41,423 nt of DNA, from IMG/VR virus record IMGVR_UViG_3300017655_000068, positions 1 through 41,423 of that record. One strand, 5' to 3'. This stretch comes from a virus (lineage: Duplodnaviria; Caudoviricetes). Position 1 is the first letter of the stretch; the number at the start of each line of letters is the position of its first letter. Position numbers and translations under genes: made by a program. The notes beneath the pieces were generated by a model. It saw only the letters and a list, made by a program, of their open reading frames with translations. It searched no databases and had not been told where the DNA came from. Shown here in pieces: positions 1,497 through 37,819 of the stretch.

Positions 1497-1892
1497 TTAC
1501 AAATCGTCAAATCCGTTATCTACGTTATTAACCTTCGTATACTGGCGACTCTTCTGCTCGAAGAAATCCGATTTCCCTAAGTCGACTTCCTCATACGCCT
1601 TAATCCAACGCATAGGATTCTTACGCGGTGTCTCCGGAAACGCATCGTGACCATATCCGAGCTGATTGCAACGAACGTTAGCGTAAAATTTGATATACTG
1701 CTCGAGATCCGCCATCGAAATACCGTCGATTTTGTTACCGATAATAGAACGACCCCATTCGATTTCTAATTCGGCAGCCTTGCGGAATGTATCGATAGCA
1801 AATTGGCGTAACTCTTCCGTATCGTATTCCGGATTCTCAGCGAGGACTTGACGGAAAATCTTAACGAAGATGTCTACGTGAATCTGTTCGTC
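1497..1892 (-). CDS. nrdB: Ribonucleotide reductase beta subunit, exon 2
   Basis: Starts DEQIH, completing the R-DExxH iron ligand motif with exon 1; ends KSDFFEQKSRQYTK; 396 nt, in frame. Confidence 0.92.
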   Translation of the reverse strand, partial: DEQIHVDIFVKIFRQVLAENPEYDTEELRQFAIDTFRKAAELEIEWGRSIIGNKIDGISMADLEQYIKFYANVRCNQLGYGHDAFPETPRKNPMRWIKAYEEVDLGKSDFFEQKSRQYTKVNNVDNGFDDL

Positions 1893-2680
1893 CTTAATGT
1901 TCACGCAAGGTCGCTACTCTTGCGCCGTCTTTCGACCGCTCGTACTTTCATACGAGAACAGACTATATCATCGCCCGTTTAGAGCGCCTCCCGCTTCCGG
2001 CCGCTTGGCCGTACTCTACTCGCTTCGGACATTAACGCCCGGCTTTCGATAGTCGTTGAACGTTCCATACGCCCCCAAAGTGCTTTCCATCGCCTTTTAT
2101 GTCGGATTAAACTTACGTAACGTGGGTGTAGGCTGTATTTGTCGCCAGCATCATCGTTACTCATTCCGTTGAGTAAATCGTTAATTAACCGCTCGGCTTG
2201 ATCGTCAGACAGTTTCGATTGTGAGTTGCGCTCACCTTTCGCAACAACTCGTAACCCTGTCGTGTCGGCATGCCGTATATTTTCGCTATAAGTTACGATC
2301 TCTAAATTATCTACGTGGTTATTCTGCTTATCTCCGTCGCGATGATTGACCGCCATCCCTTTCGGAATTGGTCCGATAAAATATTGCGCGACTAATCGAT
2401 GTACGTAGAAATTGTGAGTCTTCGCTACTTTGTTATCTCGATAGTTAACGGTGACATATCCGTTCCTATCTACAAATAGCTTTCGCGGCTTATTAGTTTT
2501 CTTCGAAATGATTTCTCCTGTTTCGGTAATGTACCACGGCGCTTCTTTCACTTCTTTTCGCATATTCCCATCCCCTTTGTAATTATTCGATGGGAACGTA
2601 TGGCTTCGCTGCTGATTGCCGTCGACTTTACGTTACGGGTTCCCAGCAATTCAAGAGGTTTTACAACCGCTCACTATTCA
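1893..2680 (-). mobile_element. Group I intron (788 nt) in RNR beta gene
   Basis: 5' splice site after AACCGU with P1 partner GCGGUU (U-G pair); P AAUUGCUGGGAA, Q AAUCAGCAG, R GUUCAACGACUA, S GAUGAUAUAGUCUG; terminal G; removal fuses YINR|DEQIH. Confidence 0.93.
1979..2563 (-). CDS. Intron-encoded HNH homing endonuclease
   Basis: [32 protein letters not shown] motif; C-terminal GERNSQSKL plus HTH-like segment. Confidence 0.92.
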
Positions 2681-3328
2681 ACGGTTGATGTAATTTATCA
2701 TCGTAGACGTTGCGACCATCTTCTGATTACGCGCCAGGTTATAGAAGAACGCAAATCCGCTGTAGAAGAATAATCCTTCGAGAATAACGTCGTAAATAAT
2801 CGATTTTAAGAAGTTCTCAACGTTAGGATTTTCGGCAAAGTCGCGATATCCGCTCGTTACGAAGTCGTTTCGGTCGCGTAGCGTCTGTTCCGATCGCCAA
2901 TAATCGAATACTTTGTCTTGCGTAGCCTTCGGAACTAGCGATGATAAAACGTAAGAATACGAATGGTTATGGATAACTTCCTGTTGCGCCAACATAATCA
3001 TAAGTGCATTAACCGCTGAATCCGTTAAATAGTCCGCTGCTTTGCCGGCATAGTCCGATTGAATCGAGTCTAATAACGCTAATAGACCGATAATCTTTAA
3101 GAATGCATCTTTCTCTGTTTCGGATAGGTCCGGATATTGTTTGATATCTTGCGCCATATTTATTTCAAACGGTGTCCAAAAATTCGATAGCATCTTCTTA
3201 TACTTTGGATATGCCCACGAATAAGCAACGTCATCCCAATTCAACACATTCGAACATTCACCGTTAATAATTCCCGTAGATTTATTCGGAGCATTTACGT
3301 TCATGATTTCTCGTTTTTTCATCGTCAT
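2681..3328 (-). CDS. nrdB: Ribonucleotide reductase beta subunit, exon 1
   Basis: FWTPFEI, LDSIQ, QEVIHNHSY, EGLFFYSGF di-iron/radical motifs. Confidence 0.93.
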
Positions 3329-5692: not shown

Positions 5693-5869
5693 TTAGTTAA
5701 ACAATCCGCCAACTATTACGCCCGCCGGAATCGCTACGCAAGCCAATCCGACTATCTTTCCGACAATTGCGCCTGGCTTTCCGTCCGTATCTGCGATTAG
5801 ATAACATAGCGCCAAGAATCCGAGGCATATTAGCGCTATAATTGAGAATGCCGTAGTTATTGCCGTCAT
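5693..5869 (-). CDS. Small two-TM membrane protein (58 aa)
   Basis: Hand-translated MTAITTAFSIIALICLGFLALCYLIADTDGKPGAIVGKIVGLACVAIPAGVIVGGLFN; ATGA overlap with upstream gene, GAGGAG RBS. Confidence 0.7.
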   Translation of the reverse strand: MTAITTAFSIIALICLGFLALCYLIADTDGKPGAIVGKIVGLACVAIPAGVIVGGLFN

Positions 5870-6081
5870 TCCGTTTCCTCCTCTACGATTTCGATTCCGC
5901 TAGCTTTTACGATTTTCAAGTCGTAAATCTGCGCTCTATACGATCGTTTCGATTGCGAGTATCCACGCTTAGCGCCCGTTAAATCGTCGTAACCCGATAT
6001 CGCATTATTACGTCCTTTACGTACATACTCTACGAAACTACCGTCTTTATCGAAATAAGCCAATACGTATAATTCGTTCAT
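5866..6081 (-). CDS. Hypothetical phage protein
   Basis: ORF with overlapping start/stop codons in operon, good RBS. Confidence 0.7.
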   Translation of the reverse strand: MNELYVLAYFDKDGSFVEYVRKGRNNAISGYDDLTGAKRGYSQSKRSYRAQIYDLKIVKASGIEIVEEETE

Positions 6082-11878: not shown

Positions 11879-12664
11879 TTAAAAGTCGTAGCTATCCGCC
11901 TCAGTTTGTTCACCAATCTCCGTTACATCGTCATCGTTTCCGCCTTGACCGCTATTACCGCCGATAGATAATCCGATCAGAGTAATATCGAAGCCTGCTG
12001 CGACTAAGTTTTCGATTTGCGTCTTTTCGTCAGCTTCGAATAGGATACCGTCAAACAGTCCGACATTAAACGGCTGATCCGCTTTTTCAAAGTTAGCCCG
12101 CTCTACGTCCGTTAAATCTTCTTCCATATCGATAATTGGAGATAGCGAAACTTTAGTCGCTGTGCTTGCGCCAGTTTTCGATAGTTCGAACGCAATCTTG
12201 CCGAGTCTCTTCTCATACTTCGTGATAACCGCGTAAATGTCTAGCGCCTGTTGTTTCGTTAAATCGACGACGAAATCTTCGCCAGTTTCGAGGTTATGGA
12301 AGCCGAGCAAGAACTTCTCTTTACCGCGATATTTATAGCCTTCCTTCTGTAATTCGTCTTTCTTTACCGCGTCAGATTCAGCGTTAGCCTTATCGTAGTA
12401 GTATTGCGCTGCTTTATCCCACGGCGTAGGGTTTGCCGTAATAAATCCGCGCTCGTTTCTTTCCGCTGGATTCTTCGGTACGAACGAATGTACTTTCTTG
12501 AAAATTCCGTAGTTAAAATATTGCATCAAGTCCTCCGTACCTTTTACGCGAACCTTGAACGTAGTACCGGATTTGAACGGAGTAATTTCCGCCTTCGGTC
12601 CGTTATCGCTCCCTCCGCTTTGTAACGCTCCAAGTGCCGCAGCTCCCGTTTTAAATTGACTCAT
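11879..12664 (-). CDS. Probable single-stranded DNA-binding protein
   Basis: Gly-rich linker and acidic tail ending SYDF; lies in replication cluster. Confidence 0.6.
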   Translation of the reverse strand: MSQFKTGAAALGALQSGGSDNGPKAEITPFKSGTTFKVRVKGTEDLMQYFNYGIFKKVHSFVPKNPAERNERGFITANPTPWDKAAQYYYDKANAESDAVKKDELQKEGYKYRGKEKFLLGFHNLETGEDFVVDLTKQQALDIYAVITKYEKRLGKIAFELSKTGASTATKVSLSPIIDMEEDLTDVERANFEKADQPFNVGLFDGILFEADEKTQIENLVAAGFDITLIGLSIGGNSGQGGNDDDVTEIGEQTEADSYDF

Positions 12665-12853
12665 TTGACCGCTTCCCTTCGTTTCTATTATTCGAACACC
12701 GGATCCTTTCGGGTTAAAAACCCTTTCCCGCGTCCGTTGCGAGATACGAGTGTAAGTTACGTCCGAACGACGTTAGCCGCCGCGCTCTTTCTTAACGGAT
12801 CGCCATCGTATCTTCCAACGGAAGCAAGCGTAGCCTCCGTATTTATCGCTTCC

Positions 12854-12961
12854 TTATTCGTTACCTTTCCGTTCTTCCTTCGTAATAAAATGCATCGCTA
12901 CTATCGCCAAGAATACCGTACCTACTCCGAATATTAAATACGCCCAATCTTGCGTAGTCAT
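12854..12961 (-). CDS. Small single-TM peptide (35 aa)
   Basis: Hand-translated MTTQDWAYLIFGVGTVFLAIVAMHFITKEERKGNE; AAGGAG RBS, ATGA overlap. Confidence 0.65.
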   Translation of the reverse strand: MTTQDWAYLIFGVGTVFLAIVAMHFITKEERKGNE

Positions 12962-13521
12962 AAGTAAGCCGCAACTCCTTTCGCGATTATCGATTTCTCG
13001 CGTTTTACTTCGATAATTTCGTTATTTAACTCGTCGATACGCATCTCGACCGCTGACTTGCGAGCCTTTAGCGACATTATCTTCGCTTCAGATCTAGCGC
13101 GTAATAGACGGTAGTCAATCTCCGCTAGCTCAATTCGTAGCTCAGCGATGATTAGCGTATTTTTACGTTCGATCTTGCGTTCGTTAGATTCGAATCGTTC
13201 AAGTTCGCGCTGTACAACTTTCGCAACCTTTTCGCTAAGGAACGTTGGTACTTCGGATAATTTCGGACGTGGCGCTTCCACTTCGGTATGCTCCGGAAAC
13301 TTATAGACCGTCACTATTTCGTTAGCATCGCTTACGATAAATCGGATACGGTGGTTATGGTTGTCATAAACGTTTGCGACCGTACCATATCCGGTAGTCC
13401 TTCCGTTATAATAAGCCGTTTGCATTAGTTGATTAAGACGATTTTCCGCCTCGTTCTTCGTAAATCCAAGACGCTCGATCGCTCGATTAACGGCGTGCTT
13501 CGTAACTTCGTACCGTTTCAT
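12958..13521 (-). CDS. Hypothetical protein with C-terminal coiled coil
   Basis: N-terminal VTKHAVNRAIERLG...IVTVY, helical C-terminus. Confidence 0.75.
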   Translation of the reverse strand: MKRYEVTKHAVNRAIERLGFTKNEAENRLNQLMQTAYYNGRTTGYGTVANVYDNHNHRIRFIVSDANEIVTVYKFPEHTEVEAPRPKLSEVPTFLSEKVAKVVQRELERFESNERKIERKNTLIIAELRIELAEIDYRLLRARSEAKIMSLKARKSAVEMRIDELNNEIIEVKREKSIIAKGVAAYL

Positions 13522-13685
13522 CCGAGACGCACTCCTTTGATGGCGCGAAGGTAGTCCGCCGAGTCTTCGTCTGGTCCGATTGAACCGTTATAAATAAAAT
13601 CGCAGTTTTTCGTTAAAGGTTCGTTTACGTCGTTAATTACGCTAGAACCGTTTATATTCGTGGCTTTATCGTTATTTTTAATCAT
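13518..13685 (-). CDS. Small hypothetical protein
   Basis: GGAGG RBS before ATG 13685; overlaps next start. Confidence 0.55.
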   Translation of the reverse strand: MIKNNDKATNINGSSVINDVNEPLTKNCDFIYNGSIGPDEDSADYLRAIKGVRLG

Positions 13686-13746
13686 ACTTTCCGCCTCCAA
13701 CCCTTAGTCTATAAGCACTAAAGTAAATTTATTTTTACAAAAATGG

Positions 13747-13775
13747 TTTACAACCGCAGGTTGTTTGGCTATAAT
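13747..13775 (+). promoter_or_regulatory. SigA-type promoter, antisense to the main operon
   Basis: TTTACA-N17-TATAAT with A/T-rich upstream element. Confidence 0.75.
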
Positions 13776-13781
13776 AATCAA

Positions 13782-13935
13782 TGTAAGGCATACAGAAAAA
13801 CCTGTATTAGCCGTAACAAATAAGCCTACGGTTTGCCGATCGTTGGTCTTAAACAAATGTATTGCAATCAAACGTAATGCCTAAGCGTTTGATTCTAAAT
13901 TAGTCAAACTGTAGTCGCCAACTCTGTTTGACACT
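13782..13935 (+). ncRNA. Putative antisense/regulatory RNA with four hairpins
   Basis: Follows the sigA promoter, no ORF; stems TACAG/CTGTA, CCGTA/TACGG, AATCAAACG/CGTTTGATT, GTCAAAC/GTTTGAC with CGCCAA loop. Confidence 0.55.
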
Positions 13936-13979
13936 TAAACTCAAAACAAATTAACCATTAAGCATTTCGGTGATATTGA

Positions 13980-14600
13980 TTATCCTGCCAGGTAATCAGC
14001 GAGTCTGCCAAACTCATTTTCGTCGAAGTGCTTACCGAGATTTTTTAATCTGTACTGAACGGTTTGCTTTGATTCATTAACGAGGTTGCCAACCTCTCTC
14101 AAAGACAATTCCGGATTACTTTTAAAACAATTCACAATTTTTATAACTTTAGCGCCGTTCTTGCCTGAACGAGCTACTAATTCAGAGACCAACGCCAATT
14201 GGTCTTTTTTGCTGTTGACCGATAATTCCATTTCAGACTTCGCATTATACTTTAAAGTATCCGATTTATAATCCGCCTCACCTAGCTCGTCAATGTCTCG
14301 ATGTCCTTCGGGGTACCAATCCCTAATTACATCGGTGACTGCGTTCTGTGATGCTCGGAACCAGTATGTAGAAAACGCTGCCCCCATTTCGATTTTCCAT
14401 CGGGTTAATGCGATAACAAACTTTTCTCGAAGCGCACTCATGAATTCGTCTCTTTCGATGTCAGTTTCGATAGACTTTACGGCAGCCAACCGTTTCATCT
14501 TCGGCTCAAACATCGTATAGAGTCGTTCGAATGCCTCCTCATCTCCGTTTTGATAATCGCAAGCTAACTGATTAACTAAGATGCGGTTAACTTTGGACAT
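13980..14600 (-). CDS. Phage-encoded RNA polymerase sigma-70 family factor
   Basis: YQNGDEEAFERLY...AAFSTYW region 2; C-terminal HTH LSLREVGNLVNESKQTVQYRL. Confidence 0.8.
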   Translation of the reverse strand: MSKVNRILVNQLACDYQNGDEEAFERLYTMFEPKMKRLAAVKSIETDIERDEFMSALREKFVIALTRWKIEMGAAFSTYWFRASQNAVTDVIRDWYPEGHRDIDELGEADYKSDTLKYNAKSEMELSVNSKKDQLALVSELVARSGKNGAKVIKIVNCFKSNPELSLREVGNLVNESKQTVQYRLKNLGKHFDENEFGRLADYLAG

Positions 14601-14640
14601 TCACATCGTTCCTCTCATTATTTAATTGTTGTTTTTTCTT

Positions 14641-14677
14641 ACACTTATTTATACGGAGAAATTAGCCTAGCGTCAAA
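14641..14677 (-). promoter_or_regulatory. Phage-specific promoter motif, copy 2 (upstream of sigma gene)
   Basis: Minus TTGACG-N15-CGTATAAATAAGTGTAAG. Confidence 0.7.
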
Positions 14678-14845
14678 AAACTTTTAAAATATTTTTCTAT
14701 TTTATTTTGTCGAGTAGGCTTGGGTTAATTTACCGTATTTTCATTTTACTACTTAGGTTACAAAAAGACAACCATTAATTCGAAATAATTGAAACTTTTT
14801 TGAGGGTCGTGCGTAATGTGGTATAATCTTCCTCGGAGGTGCGAA

Positions 14846-15070
14846 ATGACGGTCGAAGTACGCATCAAGCGTTGTCTACTTCGCGACCGACGCAAGCGCG
14901 CTGGCTTATCGCAGCAACAAGTCGCAGAACTGCTAGGCGTAAGCAAGTCACGCATTTCCGAGTATGAAAACAGCGAAATCAACATGTCCATTCTTACCGC
15001 TAAGAAGCTCGCTGTCATATGCGGCTGTGATATTAGCGATCTATTTATCTTCGAAATATCACGCAAGTAG
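14846..15070 (+). CDS. XRE-family HTH regulator
   Basis: RKRAGLSQQQVAELLGVSKSRISEYEN; GGAGG RBS; extended -10 TGGTATAAT at 14819-14827. Confidence 0.88.
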   Translation: MTVEVRIKRCLLRDRRKRAGLSQQQVAELLGVSKSRISEYENSEINMSILTAKKLAVICGCDISDLFIFEISRK

Positions 15071-15192
15071 GTCGGTCGCAGACGGAGGTATTTAATTTTC
15101 TCGCTCCGTCTAGGCGAAAGTTCCGCTCTACCGTAACTTGTATTTATTATACTACTTTAACGGTTAGACTTTCGACATATATTCGTCGACAT

Positions 15193-16167
15193 TTAGGGTC
15201 GCATCTTGTCGAATCTAAGCGATTCTACCGAATTGGTACGAATTACCTGTAGATTTTCCGTGACTAAAGCCTCGTTTGCATCCTTCGCTTGTATCCCACG
15301 CCAGTCCACCGACTCTAATTCGACGTAACCTCGCATCTTTCTTTCGACCTGTTCCACCAACTTAGCGCCAGCCTTATCGTTATCCGCCGCGATTATTAAA
15401 TGCTCGATCGGACTACGCTTAATCATATCCGCTTGCACGTCCGTAAAATTGACGCCACCGACGGCTATTCCGAACTTCCCAACGCTCGCCCACGACATCG
15501 CATCTATTTCCGCCTCACATAGGACGGCCGACCTAATCGAACGCGAGTGTACCACGTTGAGCCCGTAGACTAATTCGCGAATAGGAACCGCTCCTTTTTC
15601 GTACCAGAACGTTTTCCCTCGGATCAACCGATATTTAACGTTAGCAAGCCGTCCTCGCGCGTCATACCACGGAATTACGACCGCTTGCCTATTGCGGTCA
15701 TAACCAACGTTATATAACCGCTGAATCTTATCCGGGATTGCCCGCTTCTCTAAATACGGATGCCGATAGCGATATTCCGATAATAGATCCTCGCTAAGAT
15801 AGCGCCGTTCCTTTGCGATTTCTAGCTTCGGCAGCTTCAGCGTTATTTCACCGCCTGACCAATCAGCCGCGTAGCTTTCGAGCAAATAATCCTCCGTCTC
15901 CTCAAACGTTTCATTACGCAGAAACGATAGTAACTTAACGAAACCGCCCGACTTCCACTCTTCGTCATAATATCCGGAATCGCTCCAGGTGCCTGCGTAA
16001 TCGCCTTCGGAAAGGTTTACAAAGAACGACGGCGTTCGGTCATATCTGAATGGACTTGCTGCGAGTAGTTTATCGGAAGTCCAACGTGGTCTCGTCCACT
16101 CGAACGCTTCAAGCTCCGCCACTAAGTCGACGTCCACCGGTCGACTGCGTACTCTTATTATCGTCAT
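15193..16167 (-). CDS. DNA primase (Toprim)
   Basis: SPFRYDRTPSF, VLCEAEIDAMS, AADNDKAG, KDANE. Confidence 0.9.
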   Translation of the reverse strand: MTIIRVRSRPVDVDLVAELEAFEWTRPRWTSDKLLAASPFRYDRTPSFFVNLSEGDYAGTWSDSGYYDEEWKSGGFVKLLSFLRNETFEETEDYLLESYAADWSGGEITLKLPKLEIAKERRYLSEDLLSEYRYRHPYLEKRAIPDKIQRLYNVGYDRNRQAVVIPWYDARGRLANVKYRLIRGKTFWYEKGAVPIRELVYGLNVVHSRSIRSAVLCEAEIDAMSWASVGKFGIAVGGVNFTDVQADMIKRSPIEHLIIAADNDKAGAKLVEQVERKMRGYVELESVDWRGIQAKDANEALVTENLQVIRTNSVESLRFDKMRP

Positions 16168-23048: not shown

Positions 23049-23089
23049 GATTTTGAGTCGTGCGCGTCTGCCAATTCCGCCACACTGGC
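23049..23089 (-). other. attP: 5' half of tRNA-Leu(CAA), not a complete tRNA
   Basis: Minus GCCAGTGTGGCGGAATTGGCAGACGCGCACGACTCAAAATC = acceptor 5' strand, D arm and anticodon loop CTCAAAA; no T arm follows; adjacent to integrase. Confidence 0.88.
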
Positions 23090-23278: not shown

Positions 23279-23611
23279 CTACCGAATTCCGGTCAACTCC
23301 CGGAAGTTCAAACGCGTTACGGCGCCAGTCTCCTCAACGATTCTCAGCTCCTTCGTCAAAGGGTCCACGTAATGTACGCGCCCGACCACGCTACTAACGA
23401 AGCCATCTCGCCAGTACCGAAACTCTAGCGCCGCATTCTCTTCCATCGCTAAATGAATCCGCGCTTCTATCTCTTCGATCTCATATTCGTCAAGTATCGG
23501 CTGCTCAATCCGACCACCCTCAGCGAAATAATCTCGGAGTAGTCCGACATGATCCGTCAGCATGAGCGAAGTCCATTTCTTATTACCGCGGTCTTTAATC
23601 ATTTGCGTCAA
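23279..23611 (-). CDS. YolD-like protein
   Basis: IKDRGNKKWTSLML.DH...PILDE YolD signature. Confidence 0.88.
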   Translation of the reverse strand: MTQMIKDRGNKKWTSLMLTDHVGLLRDYFAEGGRIEQPILDEYEIEEIEARIHLAMEENAALEFRYWRDGFVSSVVGRVHYVDPLTKELRIVEETGAVTRLNFRELTGIR

Positions 23612-23634
23612 TCCTTTCGAATCCTTTTGACGTT

Positions 23635-23664
23635 ATTATATACGAATATACGTTCGATATGCAA
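23635..23664 (-). promoter_or_regulatory. SigA promoter with LexA (Cheo) box
   Basis: TTGCAT-N18-TATAAT with CGAACGTATATTCG (23643-23656) in the spacer. Confidence 0.75.
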
Positions 23665-23672
23665 CCGCCAAC

Positions 23673-24092
23673 TTAGAAAGCCTTCGCCATATCTACGATA
23701 ATATTCATAAGCATCGGCGCCATCTGAACGATAATGTATCCGAAGCCAGCTCGCTGTATCATCGTCATCGCCCGATCTTGATTTCCGATCATCCAAATGA
23801 TGCCCGCCGACAACATAACGATAAGCGCGACCGGATACGAAAGCCCTTGTATTAAATCGATAATCGGATCGAAAGCATTAACGGTCTTCTGTACGATAGC
23901 GCCTTCGATTGGTCCTGCGCTCGCTCCTATCGGTCTAAATATCGCAGTCACCGTCGAAAGTGTTGCCGCAACTAGCGCCGTCTTTTCTTGACGTTCGCGA
24001 TACTCGATAACCGACCGTTTCTTATTACCGCCCTTTCCGTAATCCCCCGACATAAATTCCCTAATCGTTCCTACACGTTTAATTTTCGCCAC
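23673..24092 (-). CDS. Membrane protein, TrbC/VirB2 pilin-like
   Basis: Leader ending ASA, then two hydrophobic helices (LSYPVALIVMLSAGIIWMIG; AGFGYIIVQMAP). Confidence 0.6.
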   Translation of the reverse strand: MAKIKRVGTIREFMSGDYGKGGNKKRSVIEYRERQEKTALVAATLSTVTAIFRPIGASAGPIEGAIVQKTVNAFDPIIDLIQGLSYPVALIVMLSAGIIWMIGNQDRAMTMIQRAGFGYIIVQMAPMLMNIIVDMAKAF

Positions 24093-24107
24093 TATAAACG
24101 CCTCCTA

Positions 24108-24710
24108 TTAATGAAAATCGTTAACCGTAAATATCTGAACGTCAAGTCCTTCGCAAAGTTTCGCTAGTTGTTTCCTCCGATAATCTGTCACCGTCATCCA
24201 TACGAATCTTGGCGCAACCTTGAACGCGCCTATTTCGATTAGCTTCCGATACTTCTCAATCTTCGCTCGGTTGGCGGACATCTTCTGCGTATGGTCGATT
24301 TCTACGATATGATAGCGACCGTCAGATACGAAAGTAGCATCGGCAATTATTCGTAGCTCCTTCCGTTCTTTTATCGCAAATCGTTGCTCGTTCTTCCAAG
24401 TAGACGGAGATCCGAACGCGATGTACAACGAATTACGCATGATAAAATGACGCGCTTGTAACGTTTTCTTTCGGATGCGACTAGCGCCAATTCTATCGCG
24501 ACCTTCTCGGCTGAGGTAATAAACCTTTTCGCCATCTCGGAAGCTGTTAACATACGCTGAGTCTTCGAGTTCCTTCATTATACGCGACGTCGAACGCGAG
24601 CTTCCAATACCATGCAACACCTGGATCTGCGATCGCGTCAGATAGTCAAGCGTCTTCAACGATAAGAGTATAGCTTCCTCCCGTTGCTCCCGTTTTATTA
24701 CCGCCTTCAT
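24108..24710 (-). CDS. Replication-relaxation family protein (wHTH + PD-(D/E)XK)
   Basis: LTRSQIQVLH HTH, HFIMRN, IADATF, IVEID...KIEKY. Confidence 0.8.
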   Translation of the reverse strand: MKAVIKREQREEAILLSLKTLDYLTRSQIQVLHGIGSSRSTSRIMKELEDSAYVNSFRDGEKVYYLSREGRDRIGASRIRKKTLQARHFIMRNSLYIAFGSPSTWKNEQRFAIKERKELRIIADATFVSDGRYHIVEIDHTQKMSANRAKIEKYRKLIEIGAFKVAPRFVWMTVTDYRRKQLAKLCEGLDVQIFTVNDFH

Positions 24711-25980
24711 TATCCGCATTCTCCTTTCTCGCTCGAATAGTTACGTGAGGCTCGATGGTCTTTCGGATATATTCGTTTTCTATAAACGGAGTCTGAACGA
24801 TTTGCTTACCGTCAGGCGTCAGATAAATCGCCCGTCCTTTTATTTTCGGCAAGGATTCCGCTCCGTCTTCGTCAAGTACGACATTACTTGCTATCGACGT
24901 TTGTAACCGGAAGCACACTTTCGTATCAGCATTCTGTTTGATTTGTCTCGGTAACGTGTCGGCGGTCGGATATTGCGTACAGAAGATTAACCGATAGCCA
25001 AGTCCGCCTCCAACTTGCGCAATCTTTGCGAGTATCGTTTCGCATTCAATCCGCATCTTCCTTTCGTCCGTGTCCGTTATTCCTTTACTCGCTAATTGCG
25101 CCGCTTCGTCTACTACGATAAAGTGTCGTCGTGGATCTTTCGCTTCTCGGATATCTTCGTAACCTTTGGCGAGATAGTCGGCTTGCTTCTCGGTCATGTC
25201 GTCGAGTATCGCTCTTAGAGCGTCAAGACTTTCGGATACATCTTTCGCAATCGTTTCGACTTGCTTTGCGCCATTATATCGGGCAAACGTTAAGCCGCCT
25301 TTTAAATCGATAAGCGTAAATTTAACGTCGTTAGGCTTGCGTGCGATTAGCGATGTTATGGCGTTTTTAAGAAATACCGACTTACCGTAACGAGTTGCGC
25401 CAGCTACGACCATATGTCCGAGTTCCGTGTCATGCGTTATGAAACCTTTCCGCGTCTCCCCTATCGGAATCTCCCACGACTTACACCGCCCGAGTAGTTC
25501 GTCGCTAAACGGAACAAACTCGGCAAGCGCTTCGTTATAAACGCGGATCTTCAGCATGCCGTCGAATTCCATTTCGATTTCCTTGCGACCGTGCGAGCGC
25601 TTTTTAATGAGTTTACGTATTTGTTCGACGATATCTTTCGGATGCTTGCGCCAATTTATCGCTTTGAAGTCGCTGAGTGATACGTTTATCACCGACCTTT
25701 TTACGTTTAAGCCATCCTGGAAATTACTCCGCTTATTTTCGAAGTCAGCGAACGAAAGTCCTAACGGAATCTGATAAACGTATTCGACGTAGCTGTCCGT
25801 TTTAGTCCGACGGAATATTCGAATCTTTCGTTTTAAATCACCGTCCTTTACGATGAGTCCGCAAGCAGCCGCGATTTTTTCTATTTTTCGGTGATCGTCT
25901 CCGCCGCTTCCGTTCTTCTTTAAATGTGCACCGGCAACTATACCGCCCATTGCTAGCGATGAAATTATTTCGATAATCAA
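24646..25980 (-). CDS. FtsK/SpoIIIE-family ATPase
   Basis: HMVVAGATRYGKS, LIDLKGG, IVVDEAA, CTQYP, GAESL..IKGRA; TTG start behind GGAGG. Confidence 0.9.
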   Translation of the reverse strand: MIIEIISSLAMGGIVAGAHLKKNGSGGDDHRKIEKIAAACGLIVKDGDLKRKIRIFRRTKTDSYVEYVYQIPLGLSFADFENKRSNFQDGLNVKRSVINVSLSDFKAINWRKHPKDIVEQIRKLIKKRSHGRKEIEMEFDGMLKIRVYNEALAEFVPFSDELLGRCKSWEIPIGETRKGFITHDTELGHMVVAGATRYGKSVFLKNAITSLIARKPNDVKFTLIDLKGGLTFARYNGAKQVETIAKDVSESLDALRAILDDMTEKQADYLAKGYEDIREAKDPRRHFIVVDEAAQLASKGITDTDERKMRIECETILAKIAQVGGGLGYRLIFCTQYPTADTLPRQIKQNADTKVCFRLQTSIASNVVLDEDGAESLPKIKGRAIYLTPDGKQIVQTPFIENEYIRKTIEPHVTIRARKENADNEGGNKTGATGGSYTLIVEDA

Positions 25981-26250
25981 AAGCGCCACCTCCACCGTTT
26001 ATATTCGAAGAATAGTTCCGCTTATTTCGCCATGATTTAACGTGCCTAGCGCTTGATCTGACGGGTTTTAGCTTGGCGATATACCTAACGAACCTTGACG
26101 AACAATAAGCGCTAATTTGCGACGTTGGATACGTCATTTGTTTTGTATGTTATATCGTATTAGCGACTGTTCGTCCGTTATGCCATTATTTTTGCCACGT
26201 TTAACAAATGTAATTTTCGGACAGACTGACGGATAAAAAGAGCGAAGGGA

Positions 26251-33777: not shown

Positions 33778-35906
33778 CTAACCCCACCTTTCCGATAATT
33801 TAACCTTGTTACCGCCGTAACGGTCGTAGTCGTTATACGTTACATGTACGAGTTCCTTACCGTTGATACTTATTGACGTATCTTTGTGTAACAATTGTTC
33901 GAGTAGCGCTTCGACTCTTCGCATGCTTACGCCTTCGGAATTGCTTTGCGATTGTCTTGCCGGAATTGGTTGCGCCGTATAATTTGCAGAAGGTTTCGGT
34001 ATTTCCGGCATAGCTGCATCAACAACGGAACCCGCCGCCTTGCTTACCGAATCCATACTTCCGAGCATTCCGTCGGCTATCCCCGGAGGAATCCAACGTC
34101 CAATTTCCTTATTCATGACTCGCGACGGTGAATTAATGTCGAACGCACCTTTTATCGTATCTGTTACGCTCGATGCGATAGATTTCGCTTTATCCATCAA
34201 CGAACCCATCATCGAACCTATACCGGTAATTAATCCCTGGATAATGTTCTTACCGACGGACACCAAGTTAATCGACGATAAGAAATTCTGCGCCGCGCTC
34301 CAACCGGACTGAATTACGCCTTTAATACCGTTCATTACGCTTGATATCGTGCTTCTCATCGCATTGAATCCGCTCGTAATAAACGACTTTATTCCGTTAA
34401 TGACCGACGATATAACCGATCTGATACCGTTCCATACCGAAGTAATTACGCTCCGAATCGTTCCTAGCGTGTTGGTTACGAATGACTTAATAAAGTTAAA
34501 TCCGGACGTTATCGCGTTTCTGACCGCTCCGATTGACGCGGTAAAGACGGTCTTGATTACGTTCCATAAATTCGTTATCTGCGACTTCATTCCCGAAGCG
34601 AATATCTTGACCGCTCCGACAATCTTTCCGATAAACATTACGGAAATTAAGTTCCAAACGAACTGAACCGCCCCTCCGATGATTTGCTTGATTGCGTCCC
34701 ATAGCGCCGACCAGTTTCCGGTAAATAGCGCCGCGAACGCTTTGATTACGCCCATAATCACGTTGAGTGCTCCGTTGATTACGCCTTTTATCGCTTCCCA
34801 TGTCGATATAATAAGGAATTGAATAACCGGCCATATCGCTTGCATTACCGACCAAATAACGTTCATGACCGTCGATATAATCGTGCTTATTACGTTCCAA
34901 ACGTTAGTCGCCGCTTGCATAATCATCGCGCCATTTTCGTCCCAAAACGCTTTAATTTGCGCTAGTTTTTCGCCGATAAACGCGCTTACCGTAGTCATTA
35001 CCGTTTGTACGATTCCTTTAATAAACGTTAACGCCGTATTAAATGCGGTCTTAATCGCTTCCCACGCCGTATTAACCATATTCCGGAACCATTCGACCTT
35101 CTTATACGCCACAACAAGACCAACGCCAATTCCGACTATTGCTGCGATAACTAACGCTACGATTCCAATAATAGGCAATATCGAAGCTATAAACGGTAAT
35201 ACTGTCGCCGTTAGTACCGTAAAGCCTGCCGCTATCATCGGTAATATTCCGACCAGTAACAATAACGGACCGACAACTAATAACGCTACCGCGGTCAATG
35301 CCGCCACTATCGTAATTGTCGACTGTACTGACGATGGAAGTCCGTTGAACCAGTTGATTAACGTAGTTAATGCGTTCGTTACCGCTTGAATAGCCGGCGT
35401 AAGCGCGGTTCCCATCGAAATCATAAGCGTTTCAAATGCTCCGCCCAATTGTTCGACAGCGCCTTTTAAGTTATCTTTCATCGCGGTTGCCGTCTTTTGC
35501 GCCGACCCTTCGGAGTTTTCCAGTTCTTCCGTAAACTTCCGCAACTTTTCGGGCCCAGCGTCAATTACCGTTAACATACCGCTCGCCGCTTCCGCTCCGA
35601 ATATCGTCGATAATGCCGCTAGTTTAGCCGCGTTACCCATTCCGTCGGTGCTTTCCGCTAGTTGCTGTATAATATTATCGAACGGAAGCATATCGCCGTT
35701 AGCGTCTTTGAGCGTAAGTCCGAGGTCTGCGATAGCTTTCGCCGCTTCATTCGGTGGATCGGATAATCGGATTAACGCCATTCTTAGCGTTGTACCGGCT
35801 TGTTCACCCTGCATACCGGCATCTGTCATGATCCCCGTTGCTGCCGCTAATGTTTCCATCGATATTCCGAGTGTGTTTGCCAAAGGTGCAGCGTATTTAA
35901 ATGCAT
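33778..35906 (-). CDS. Tape measure protein, exon 2
   Basis: (Y)AFKYAAPLANTLG...; Trp/Phe-periodic repeats; spliced product 888 aa. Confidence 0.92.
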
Positions 35907-37281
35907 CAATATGTTATCCTACCGACATTTAATCTGGTAGTTCTTATAGTTTCCTATAAGTTCAGACTATATCTTCACCTACAGCATATCTGTTTAGGTG
36001 GCAAGCGCTCTTGGGTCTTTACTGTCCTCGACTCTACGTTAGGACTCCTTGACCTAGTCGTTACACCTTCCGTTTATTTCTAAACGGCTTGGCTCGGTAT
36101 TAACGTACTTTTGGCGAATTAAAAAGACCTATGAAGTACATAGGTCTAGATTTCTAATAAAGTCATTCAATATATCGTTAATATTGTCAAACTTATAATA
36201 AGGGATGCGTAAAAGAGGGATATCATTTTTTCTGCAATATTCGGTTTTAATCGCGTCTCGCTCTTTTACTTTCTCTAGGTATTCCCGCCCTCCATAAAAC
36301 TCTTTCTCGATGAAATGTTGCTCACCATCAAACTCTATCGCTAGTTTTACCTGGTCGGTATGGAGCACAACAAAATCGAACGGGAGTGACCTAATATACC
36401 TGCAATCCTCGAAACGAAATTCTCTTTCGTACGAAATTTTATGCTTTTCTAAGTAATCTCTTATTGCGCTCTCTCCGTGAGATGCTTTGCAGTTAGGACA
36501 TCTTCTTCCTCTTAAGAATTTGTCAGGATTCACTTTATATACATAACCACAAATGTTATGTTTTATATCTAATTTAGTTTTATTAGTAACATAACTACCT
36601 AACACGACATACTCATCGCCCACTATGTTATACACTTCTTCCTTAAATTGTGTTGTGTCTTTTTTAACATTATTTCCAAAACAAAAAGGACACCTACTAT
36701 TTTTACTAATAATGTTGTTTGGAGTGGCGCTGAAAACTTTCTCGCATGTATCGTGTCTTATCGTAACCTTTTCGTTTGATTTAGTGTACTTCGTTAATAG
36801 AGTATAGTCAGGTAGGTTGTTTATAAAGAAATCATCAAAATCCTTCGGCTCGTTTCTTTTAAATTCTCCACTACAATCATTACTACAAAAATCTTGTTTC
36901 TTAGTTGCAGAAAAGGTATTACCACACTGTTTACATGAGTATGTGTGAAATTCTTTTCTTTGTGCTTTTCTGCATTCCTTACACTTACCTTCGTAACCAT
37001 CTTTAGTATTCTTATTCTTAGCGAATTGAGATATTTCTAACTCAACTCCACATCGTTTACATATTTTTTTCACAAAACCACTCTCCCGAAAGTAGTTTCC
37101 CGAAGTATTAAAAGTAAGGAAAGGTATTCGGGAAAACACCCTTATCACAAACGGCTCGCGACTTCCGTTGCTATCCTTATCTATAATTTATCATAAAAAT
37201 ACCTTCGCCAAAAGGTTAGTCTTCACCGAATTCACTTGCTTCTTTATGCTGCAAATTTCTTCGCAACCGGGCAGCATTTCC
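35907..37281 (-). mobile_element. Group I intron (1375 nt) in tape measure gene
   Basis: 5' splice site after GGGU with P1 partner GCCC; P GAAUUCGGUGAA, Q AAUACCGAG, R GUGUAACGACUA, S GAAGAUAUAGUCUG; terminal G; removal gives DLG-Y-AFKYAAP in frame. Confidence 0.92.
36129..37073 (-). CDS. Intron-encoded endonuclease: zinc-finger repeats plus Vsr/DUF559-like nuclease domain
   Basis: Multiple CxxC and HxxC...CPxC repeats; SHGE...LPFDF...IEFDGEQHF...LLRIPY; GTG start behind GGGAG. Confidence 0.85.
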   Translation of the reverse strand: MKKICKRCGVELEISQFAKNKNTKDGYEGKCKECRKAQRKEFHTYSCKQCGNTFSATKKQDFCSNDCSGEFKRNEPKDFDDFFINNLPDYTLLTKYTKSNEKVTIRHDTCEKVFSATPNNIISKNSRCPFCFGNNVKKDTTQFKEEVYNIVGDEYVVLGSYVTNKTKLDIKHNICGYVYKVNPDKFLRGRRCPNCKASHGESAIRDYLEKHKISYEREFRFEDCRYIRSLPFDFVVLHTDQVKLAIEFDGEQHFIEKEFYGGREYLEKVKERDAIKTEYCRKNDIPLLRIPYYKFDNINDILNDFIRNLDLCTS

Positions 37282-37819
37282 ACCCTAAGTCGTTAACATC
37301 CGCGCTCGACTTATTTGCAGTCATCGCCATAATGTCCGCAACCCTTGACGCTTCGGACGCTTCGAGTTGGAACGAATTCAACGCCGAAGCTACAACGTTA
37401 GATACTAACGCCATGTCTTCGCCTGACGCTTCCGCCGCCGCGATAATTCCGGGCATAGCCGCGATTACTTCGTTAACCTCGAATCCTTTTTTCGCCATTT
37501 CTTCCATGCCGAGCGCTACTTCACTTGCGCTTTTACTCGTACTCGCGCCGAGGTCTAACGCCGTCTGACGTAAGTCGTTTAGTTGGTCGCCTGTTGCGTT
37601 TGATACCGCCGATACTCGCGACATTTGAGCGTTAAAATCTGTCGCCGTTTTAACCGCATAACCAAGTCCGACCGCGATGCCGGCGCCTGCTGCGGTCATT
37701 CCGGCTCCTAGCGTTCCGACCGCTTGAAATGCGTTAGACGTTTCTTTATTCAGCTTCGACATTGTTTTACTGAAATCGTCGATCGCTGAGATTTTAAAGC
37801 TAATGTTGAGTCCGCTCAC
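37282..37819 (-). CDS. Tape measure protein, exon 1 (TP901-type core)
   Basis: FNAQMSRVSAVS.ATG, LGAST.KSASEVA.GM, AMPG...AAEASG. Confidence 0.92.

What the first reader, a model, noticed from the sequence alone, without database searches (positions are those of the whole stretch)
13747..13935. Candidate antisense RNA with a CGCCAA/UUGGCG kissing loop gating the operon downstream of the phage sigma factor
Seen: a near-consensus sigA promoter (TTTACA-17-TATAAT) fires against the main direction into an ORF-free 200 nt. This stretch folds as a three-way junction (GGCA/TGCC closing two hairpins) followed by two more hairpins, the last with CGCCAA (13916-21) in its loop. The opposite mRNA, running from the sigma gene toward SSB/Pol/RNR, would display UUGGCG in the matching loop. 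Known: CGCCAA/UUGGCG U-turn loops are the recognition elements of plasmid antisense systems such as ColIb-P9 Inc RNA. Inference: a host-sigA-driven RNA attenuates the phage-sigma-driven replication operon, a possible RNA-based second immunity layer.
Basis: partly seen in the sequence, partly recalled or inferred. Interest (0 to 1): 0.78.

Follow-up and report, generated by a model that had tools for sequence, protein, structure and literature searches.

The report
Antisense RNA brake on phage sigma
A Bacillus-type temperate phage has a host-type promoter and a terminator hidden inside its own sigma-factor gene, which together would make a ~430-base opposite-strand RNA studded with repeated GCC-loop hairpins; this RNA likely holds the predicted self-amplifying sigma gene below its switch-on threshold, a design shared by many related phages and by the studied SigN system of plasmid pBS32.

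Summary
The promoter and the CGCCAA hairpin are real. The three-way junction is not supported, and the RNA is larger than proposed. A sigA-type promoter (13747-13775, +) faces the 3' end of an ECF-like phage sigma gene (13980-14600, -), and an intrinsic terminator lies inside that gene (14184-14212). The predicted antisense RNA is ~430 nt.

Among related loci (111 after removing near-duplicates), 70/111 have the antisense promoter (sense 4/111) and 91/108 have the embedded antisense terminator (sense 1/108; synonymous shuffles 12-26). Hairpins with YGCCR loops cluster inside the predicted RNA (233 vs 40 expected). RNA-library contigs of one relative tile the predicted span; strand and level are not shown.

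A repeated non-sigA promoter motif precedes the sigma gene itself, which suggests positive feedback. The closest known system is pBS32 SigN with its asiN antisense threshold: SigN is a distant homologue, and its locus shows the same anatomy with inverted loops. This is not a ColIb-P9-type system, and no sense terminator for classical attenuation was found. Verdict: a new variant of a known kind. The embedded terminator and loop array were not in the papers I could search.

The parts
13747..13775 (+). sigA-type promoter of the antisense RNA (-35 13747-52, -10 13770-75; start predicted at about 13781-83)
   Evidence: an antisense promoter in 70/111 loci (strict) and 97/111 (relaxed)
13750..13764 (.). 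Inverted repeat in the promoter spacer (candidate operator or mRNA hairpin); arms kept, centre changed in L013
   Evidence: single copy in the window
13782..14212 (+). Predicted ~430-nt cis antisense RNA covering the intergenic region and the 3' ~230 nt of the sigma gene
   Evidence: promoter plus terminator; fold z -4.95, 0/100 shuffles; relative L081 RNA contigs
13787..13850 (+). Hairpins H1 and H2 at the 5' end (not a three-way junction)
13866..13894 (+). H3, conserved intergenic hairpin, loop AUGCCUA (13877-83), covarying stem with a recurrent mismatch 4 bp below the loop
   Evidence: 47/111 loci vs 68/6660 background sites; covariation 0.717 vs 0.217, 0/500 shuffles
13903..13932 (+).
13976..14171 (+). 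Four more GCC-loop hairpins (13976-99 over the sigma stop, 14001-15, 14082-96, 14156-71)
   Evidence: GCC unpaired probability 0.77-0.94 on +, GGC 0.73-0.92 on -; 3 at strict threshold in the sigma CDS vs 0.23 expected, 0/100
14184..14212 (+). Intrinsic terminator embedded in the sigma coding sequence, loop CGCCAA (14193-98)
   Evidence: 91/108 loci; 97.5% of cells paired, 7 of 9 pairs with two-sided changes
13980..14600 (-). ECF-like phage sigma factor (206 aa), distant homologue of pBS32 SigN; predicted target
   Evidence: family profile hits SigW E 7e-8; top fold hits are sigma factors; SigN
14649..14676 (-). Repeated non-sigA promoter-like motif before the sigma gene (also at 21318-45 and 1449-76); candidate phage-sigma promoter, hence self-activation
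   Evidence: 268TH002 has a different motif at the equivalent places
13518..13685 (-). Small acidic conserved ORF (55 aa); its ribosome-binding site is predicted to be occluded when the RNA-covered leader is removed
   Evidence: synteny; +6.7 kcal/mol in the window
12958..13521 (-). phrog_5083 protein: N-terminal domain weakly like the colicin D tRNase fold, plus a helical hairpin; coupled to the small ORF
   Evidence: E 0.04-0.07, weak
14816..15070 (+). XRE repressor-like gene divergent from sigma, with its own sigA-type promoter (14800-14827)

Best explanation
The region is the 5' part of a predicted ~430-nt cis antisense RNA that likely acts as a threshold brake on the phage's own, probably self-activating, ECF-like sigma factor. 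Shown in sequence: a sigA-type promoter facing the sigma gene, an antisense-only intrinsic terminator inside its coding sequence, and an array of YGCCR-loop hairpins between them, conserved across diverse relatives. Inferred: host RNA polymerase makes the RNA constitutively in the lysogen. Its GCC loops kiss the complementary GGC loops of the sigma mRNA at several sites, and the ~430-bp duplex is destroyed (RNase III-type) or left untranslated; collision of the two polymerases may add to this. The sigma promoter also appears to drive the co-transcribed small ORF-phrog_5083-SSB-Pol-RNR operon, so that operon is held down too, and in some lineages the cut leader is predicted to refold over the next ribosome-binding site. 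Lysis would start only when sigma mRNA exceeds the antisense pool (after repressor release or, in AimR-bearing relatives, arbitrium read-through), after which positive feedback locks it on.
For: Antisense promoter 70/111 vs sense 4/111, shuffles 8+-2. Embedded antisense terminator 91/108 vs sense 1/108 and synonymous shuffles 12-26; covarying stem rich in antisense G-U pairs. Its loop maps to at least three alignment positions with different amino acids. YGCC-loop hairpins 7.7/kb inside the predicted RNA vs 1.8/kb in flanks, 79 loci; 233 vs 40+-5 in the sigma 3' end, with little or no excess in primase, aimR or phrog_5083. Among 33 sigma representatives below 40% identity: 28 have the promoter, 24 the terminator, 17 two or more loops. 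In relative L081 (predicted RNA 5735-6001), RNA-library contigs of runs X10 and X16 (one study) tile about 5740 to 6001 and 5940; X20 and X22 (second study) tile the 5' part from 5956. A repeated sigma-type motif precedes sigma in the window and in 268TH002. Experimental precedent: pBS32 SigN/asiN (PMC10601692, passages); SigN is a distant homologue and its locus has the same anatomy.
Against: No expression data for the window itself. Contigs cannot show strand, ends or level; the X10 end at 6001 carries a loose end; in X20 high-depth contigs continue to 6066, past the predicted start; 3 of the 7 runs laid were uninformative. Kissing, cleavage and self-activation are untested. 17 of 108 loci have no detected GCC hairpin and 17 of 108 no terminator by my script. 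GCC is preferred on the antisense strand in this family, which pure symmetric pairing does not require. The ribosome-site switch is lineage-limited: 28 up, 11 down of 61. Loci are related, so counts are not independent.
Confidence: 0.72

Rival explanations
1. One reading: a short RNA uses the 13916-21 loop to attenuate transcription or translation only of the genes downstream of sigma (pT181/ColIb-P9 style).
For: Promoter and loop exist. The downstream operon has no copy of the sigma-type motif, so it depends on read-through. Removing the RNA-covered leader raises the opening energy of the next ribosome site by 6.7 kcal/mol in the window and by about 3-8 in most B. subtilis-group loci.
Against: No + strand terminator after H4 and none on the - strand in the intergenic region; sense T-run after the conserved hairpin in only 6/47; H4-type loop in 1/79 loci and no sense CGCCAA partner; most loops and the terminator lie inside sigma.
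Confidence: 0.1
2. The repeated loops are protein-binding sites (a nut/boxB-like antitermination array on the mRNA, or a CsrB-like sponge on the antisense RNA), and base-pairing is secondary.
For: Repeated short loops on variable stems are typical of protein-binding RNAs (my knowledge). GCC is favoured on the antisense strand, including Arg codons CGG/AGG in 31 of 49 Arg-Gln loops. The operon is ~13 kb long.
Against: The loop is exactly inverted in 13 of 108 terminators and in all three pBS32 sigN hairpins. The array is bounded by the antisense promoter and terminator and absent from downstream genes.
Confidence: 0.1
3. Silencing is by transcriptional interference (convergent polymerases), with the RNA product dispensable.
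For: Strong convergent promoter; two or more antisense promoters in 29/111 loci. PMC10601692 (passages read) does not separate the two mechanisms.
Against: Interference alone would not select for covarying hairpins with fixed loops inside the coding sequence.
Confidence: 0.05
4. The loops mimic a tRNA-Gly(GCC) anticodon arm and serve as decoy or substrate for the downstream colicin-D-like protein (antitoxin, or a feedback cut that removes the brake).
For: Some 7-nt loops read YUGCCAA; the phrog_5083 N-domain has weak colicin D fold hits and an invariant His. The anticodon resemblance is recalled.
Against: The array is denser in the 22 loci lacking phrog_5083 (3.8 vs 2.6 hairpins). Most loops are not centred 7-mers. 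Loops invert.
Confidence: 0.03

Closest known systems
SigN and its antisense transcripts (PasiN1/PasiN3) on B. subtilis plasmid-prophage pBS32 (PMC10601692: abstract, introduction and passages read)
   Same: Self-activating mobile-element sigma factor held below threshold by promoters downstream of, and facing, the gene. SigN is a distant homologue (hhalign 93.6%; profile E 1e-12). Its locus has an antisense extended -10 75 nt past the stop, three hairpins with a repeated loop, and a hairpin plus T-run 248 nt into the gene.
   Different: About 13% identity; loops are inverted (GGC on the antisense strand); the sigN hairpin after the stop is followed by a sense T-run (terminator-like), whereas here an operon follows. 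This is an integrating ~65-kb phage family, a third of the loci with AimR. LexA and AbrB control not tested here. The paper's main text has no 'terminator' or 'hairpin'; supplements not read.
Lambda OOP RNA / cII (PMC5869508 and PMC12197685, passages)
   Same: Convergent antisense RNA from a host-type intergenic promoter, overlapping the 3' end of a lysis-lysogeny regulator and ending at its own terminator; RNase III-linked decay.
   Different: OOP overlaps 52 bases of cII and favours lysis; here ~230 nt of a sigma gene, many loops, predicted to favour lysogeny. Sequence homology not tested.
ColIb-P9 Inc RNA / repZ and R1 CopA/CopT (titles seen in the reference list of PMC10724649; mechanism recalled)
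   Same: Same CGCCAA/UUGGCG loop hexamer; imperfect upper stems.
   Different: Those are short RNAs with one recognition loop acting on a plasmid rep leader; no leader-peptide pseudoknot partner here.
Arbitrium 'RP' architecture (bioRxiv 10.1101/2025.11.23.689978, parts 1-3 of 7 and passages)
   Same: 37 of 111 related loci have aimR directly upstream of this sigma gene.
   Different: The window has no aimR. The paper explains the aimX-aimC-aimL systems and has no mention of 'sigma'; I did not assign these AimR proteins to a clade.

Membership tests
pBS32 SigN/asiN-type antisense threshold | Sigma factor homologous to SigN | tested here: met
   hhalign 93.6%, E 2e-7; profile E 1e-12; distant (13% identity), may reflect only shared sigma-70 ancestry
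pBS32 SigN/asiN-type antisense threshold | Promoter(s) downstream of and facing the sigma gene | tested here: met
pBS32 SigN/asiN-type antisense threshold | Sigma activates its own promoter (positive feedback) | tested here: inconclusive
   Repeated bipartite motif before sigma and two other operons in the window and in 268TH002; activity not shown
pBS32 SigN/asiN-type antisense threshold | Antisense transcript lowers sigma accumulation | not testable with these tools
   needs knockout or reporter
pBS32 SigN/asiN-type antisense threshold | LexA-repressed sense promoter; AbrB-repressed antisense promoter | not tested
   no binding-site search was run
ColIb-P9 Inc / I-complex replication control | CGCCAA loop on antisense RNA, UUGGCG on target | tested here: met
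   13916-21 and 14193-98
ColIb-P9 Inc / I-complex replication control | Short single-loop RNA (recalled, about 70 nt) | tested here: not met
   first + strand terminator is ~430 nt from the start; family median 270-280 nt
ColIb-P9 Inc / I-complex replication control | Activating pseudoknot between target loop and a complementary hexamer before the rep ribosome site (recalled) | tested here: not met
   no sense CGCCAA in 13681-13980, only a 5-nt GCCAA; the target is not a plasmid rep gene
pT181/pIP501 transcriptional attenuators | Sense intrinsic terminator induced in the leader | tested here: not met
   none on - strand in 13685-13980; sense T-run in 6/47 homologous hairpins
Lambda OOP-like architecture | Convergent RNA from an intergenic host promoter overlapping the 3' end of a regulator's coding sequence, with its own terminator | tested here: met
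Lambda OOP-like architecture | RNase III-dependent decay of the target | not testable with these tools
   needs rnc mutant or in vitro cleavage
Bacillus type I toxin-antitoxin (bsrG/SR4 type) | Antisense overlaps the mRNA of a small hydrophobic toxin (recalled) | tested here: not met
   the overlapped gene is the sigma factor; the nearby 55-aa ORF is acidic and not overlapped
Rfam families | Match to a curated RNA model | tested here: inconclusive
   no match at gathering score in the window or at E <= 10 in 12100-15550

The most novel reading that the evidence does not exclude
A whole family of Bacillales temperate phages, and pBS32, use a dual-coded multi-loop kissing array written into the sigma gene as their lysis-lysogeny threshold device. 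In the AimR-bearing members this RNA titration is the missing output of 'RP-only' arbitrium systems, and the same duplex also flips a ribosome-site switch that keeps a putative nuclease and the replication operon off.
Probability: 0.3. Interest if true: 0.85.

Novelty: new variant of a known kind. Interest (0 to 1): 0.62.

Why it matters
Antisense thresholding of a self-activating sigma factor has been shown for pBS32 SigN, where the authors call it perhaps a first for sigma control. The same logic appears to be a conserved switch in a large phage family. It comes with precise, mutable parts (promoter, embedded terminator, 6-8 loops) and with isolated B. subtilis phages (268TH002, phi18-2) to test it in. 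It predicts undescribed loops and a terminator in asiN itself, and offers a concrete output for arbitrium systems that lack the aimX-aimC-aimL module. Other agents of this scan reached the same reading on other genomes; that is not independent evidence.

Tried and rejected
- Direct DNA or sigma-protein searches found no close relatives; relatives were reached through the SSB.
- Three-way junction: rejected.
- G-U asymmetry first suggested that H3 works on the sense strand (35 vs 12), but this nearly vanished when stems were chosen on Watson-Crick pairs only (34 vs 31).
- Pairing of the H3 loop with the small ORF's start codon: not consistent across loci (by eye).
- tRNA-mimic or nuclease decoy: the array persists without phrog_5083.
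- Loop hairpins in replication genes (claimed in e1-10027070): no clear excess at my threshold in 18 other window genes or pooled primase (131 vs 116+-9).
- The spacer palindrome does not recur in the window.
- The VIA search of phrog_5083 was filled by the coiled coil and says nothing about the N-domain.
- RNA runs X8 and X11 gave long flat contigs and X17 mixed pieces: uninformative. X10, X16 and X22 show no cover downstream of the intergenic region, but lack of cover proves nothing.
- The 12 listed loose ends of X20/X22 carry one adapter on one side, which would fit an antisense RNA under the usual stranded protocol; the library type is unknown.
- My terminator script required a G-C closing pair and so missed the window's own terminator, found.
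- L001 and L126 (the window's own sequence) were dropped; L198 is near-identical to the window and still counts as one of the 111.
- Paper searches found no description of this phage family's RNA. The 2019 arbitrium survey was not held, subscription papers are not searched, and no supplements were read; any of these may describe it.

Full report
Context. The window is a 41-kb virus record of a temperate Bacillales siphophage. Nearly all genes are on the - strand: tail, lysis, integrase, replication initiator, helicase, primase, a 206-aa gene at 13980-14600, then a 55-aa ORF, phrog_5083, SSB, polymerase and ribonucleotide reductase. The SSB links it to B. subtilis phages 268TH002 and phi18-2 and Sporosarcina phage Lietuvens, which keep the same gene order; the first two add aimR before the sigma gene. 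A profile of the 206-aa family hits SigW (E 7e-8) and other sigma factors, and the model's top fold hits are sigma factors.

Observation. The promoter is real (11/12, best in 10 kb) and CGCCAA at 13916-21 sits in a loop. The three-way junction has a pair probability of about 0.002. The next + strand terminator is at 14184-14212, inside the sigma gene, and its loop is CGCCAA too. The whole 431-nt unit folds far better than shuffles (z -4.95).

Comparative evidence. An SSB alignment retrieved 200 loci. Of all loci held, 158 contain the sigma gene and 111 remain after removing near-duplicates; the window's own copies were dropped. A strict sigA promoter points antisense from the intergenic region in 70 of 111 loci, sense in 4, against 8+-2 in shuffles; a relaxed scan gives 97 and 10. 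An antisense intrinsic terminator lies 170-260 nt before the sigma stop in 91 of 108 loci, a sense one in 1, against 12-26 after synonymous shuffling. In 49 of these, all from the longer-distance class, 97.5% of stem cells pair and 7 of 9 pairs show two-sided changes, with many G-U pairs on the antisense strand (rows were chosen as antisense terminators). The loop is CGCCAA in 39, UUGCCG in 24 and the exact inverse UUGGCG in 13 of 108, at different protein positions. The intergenic hairpin H3 has a fixed AUGCCUA loop on a freely covarying stem: 47 of 111 loci against 68 of 6660 background sites, covariation 0.717 vs 0.217 (rows chosen for pairing).

These two are members of an array. YGCC-loop hairpins occur at 7.7 per kb inside the predicted RNA and 1.8 per kb in its flanks (79 loci). 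There are 233 in the sigma 3' ends against 40+-5 expected, with little or no excess in primase, aimR or phrog_5083. Some excess extends up to ~80 nt past the terminator. Among 33 sigma representatives below 40% identity, 28 have the promoter, 24 the terminator and 17 two or more loops.

Expression. For relative L081 the predicted RNA is 5735-6001. Seven runs were laid. In X10 and X16 (one study) 239 and 113 contigs were laid, nearly all between about 5740 and 6001 (X16 to about 5940), while one contig of depth 7-9 spans the upstream part of sigma. X20 and X22 (second study) tile from 5956 to about 6006 (X22) or 6066 (X20). X8, X11 and X17 were uninformative. Contigs show neither strand, level nor true ends, and the 6001 end carries a loose end, so this is a hint that fits the prediction, not proof. 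It is not the window's own phage.

Why a brake. A bipartite non-sigA motif precedes the sigma gene, the replication initiator and phoH in the window (38/50 and 37/50 matches, next best 27). 268TH002 has a different motif at the equivalent places, plus one copy inside its annotated aimR. I infer that these are promoters of each phage's own sigma, hence positive feedback. No copy lies between sigma and the reductase genes, so the SSB-Pol-RNR operon likely depends on read-through from the sigma promoter. Removing the RNA-covered leader raises the energy to open the next ribosome site by 6.7 kcal/mol in the window and by about 3-8 in most B. subtilis-group loci, but family-wide only 28 of 61 rise and 11 fall.

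Mechanism. Shown: promoter, terminator, loop array, their conservation and bounds. Inferred: constitutive synthesis, multi-site kissing, duplex decay, self-activation, threshold behaviour. Loop-loop starts with U-turn motifs, and concurrent use of two loop pairs, are documented for Bacillus and plasmid antisense systems (PMC6562991, passages). Rivals are downstream-only attenuation, protein-binding loops, pure interference and a nuclease decoy; the last is weakened because the array is denser where phrog_5083 is missing.

Known systems. A look-up of this scan's notes pointed me to pBS32 SigN. There, antisense promoters downstream of sigN set the threshold for positive feedback (PMC10601692; abstract, introduction and passages). 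SigN is a distant homologue of this family. Its locus has an antisense extended -10 75 nt past the stop, three hairpins with a repeated loop in inverted polarity, and a hairpin with T-run 248 nt into the gene; the paper's main text mentions neither terminator nor hairpin. Lambda OOP has the same convergent layout (PMC5869508, PMC12197685; passages). ColIb-P9 shares only the hexamer (titles; mechanism recalled). Rfam has no match. Ten library searches found no account of this RNA; the 2019 arbitrium survey, subscription papers and supplements were not seen.

Verdict. Observation partly confirmed; interpretation partly supported and redirected to the sigma mRNA. It works like SigN/asiN and is probably a distant relative of it; it is not a ColIb-P9 member. 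New variant of a known kind, interest 0.62.

Noticed in passing
window 1497-3328 (-): Ribonucleotide reductase beta gene is split by an HNH endonuclease ORF (1979-2563), probably a group I intron; Rfam gave no hit at gathering score.
   Followed up: no
window 33778-37819 (-): Tape measure gene is split by a homing-endonuclease ORF (36129-37148), probably an intron in a tail gene.
   Followed up: no
window 23049-23089 (-): About 40 bases resembling the 5' half of a tRNA-Leu (recalled likeness) upstream of the integrase; candidate attP core. ARAGORN finds no whole tRNA.
   Followed up: partly
window 12958-13521 (-): phrog_5083 has an invariant His in an N-domain with weak colicin D tRNase fold hits and DUF3781 hits in 3 of 69 members; possible phage RNase coupled to a small acidic ORF.
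   Followed up: partly
window 23279-25995 (-): YolD-like, pilin-like (TrbC/VirB2), replication-relaxation and FtsK genes in a phage genome.
   Followed up: no
window 12664-12958 (-): Long intergenic region before SSB with two terminator-like hairpins (12939-56, 12726-44), which read-through would have to pass.
   Followed up: no
L207 36325-37480 (pBS32 sigN): Three hairpins with a repeated UUGGCAG loop on the antisense strand and a candidate antisense terminator 248 nt inside sigN.
   Followed up: partly
L206 10957-11076 and 35071-35184 (268TH002): A second repeated promoter-like motif follows the first at two operon starts; the phage has a second annotated sigma gene.
   Followed up: no
L003/L004/L081, intergenic region after sigma: In B. 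subtilis-group phages a long-range sense helix competes with a hairpin over the small ORF's ribosome site; the antisense RNA covers one arm of the helix.
   Followed up: partly
L198, copy of window 14001-15: A near-identical phage has a synonymous change giving the loop CUACCAA, which I recall as the ColE1 RNA II loop.
   Followed up: no
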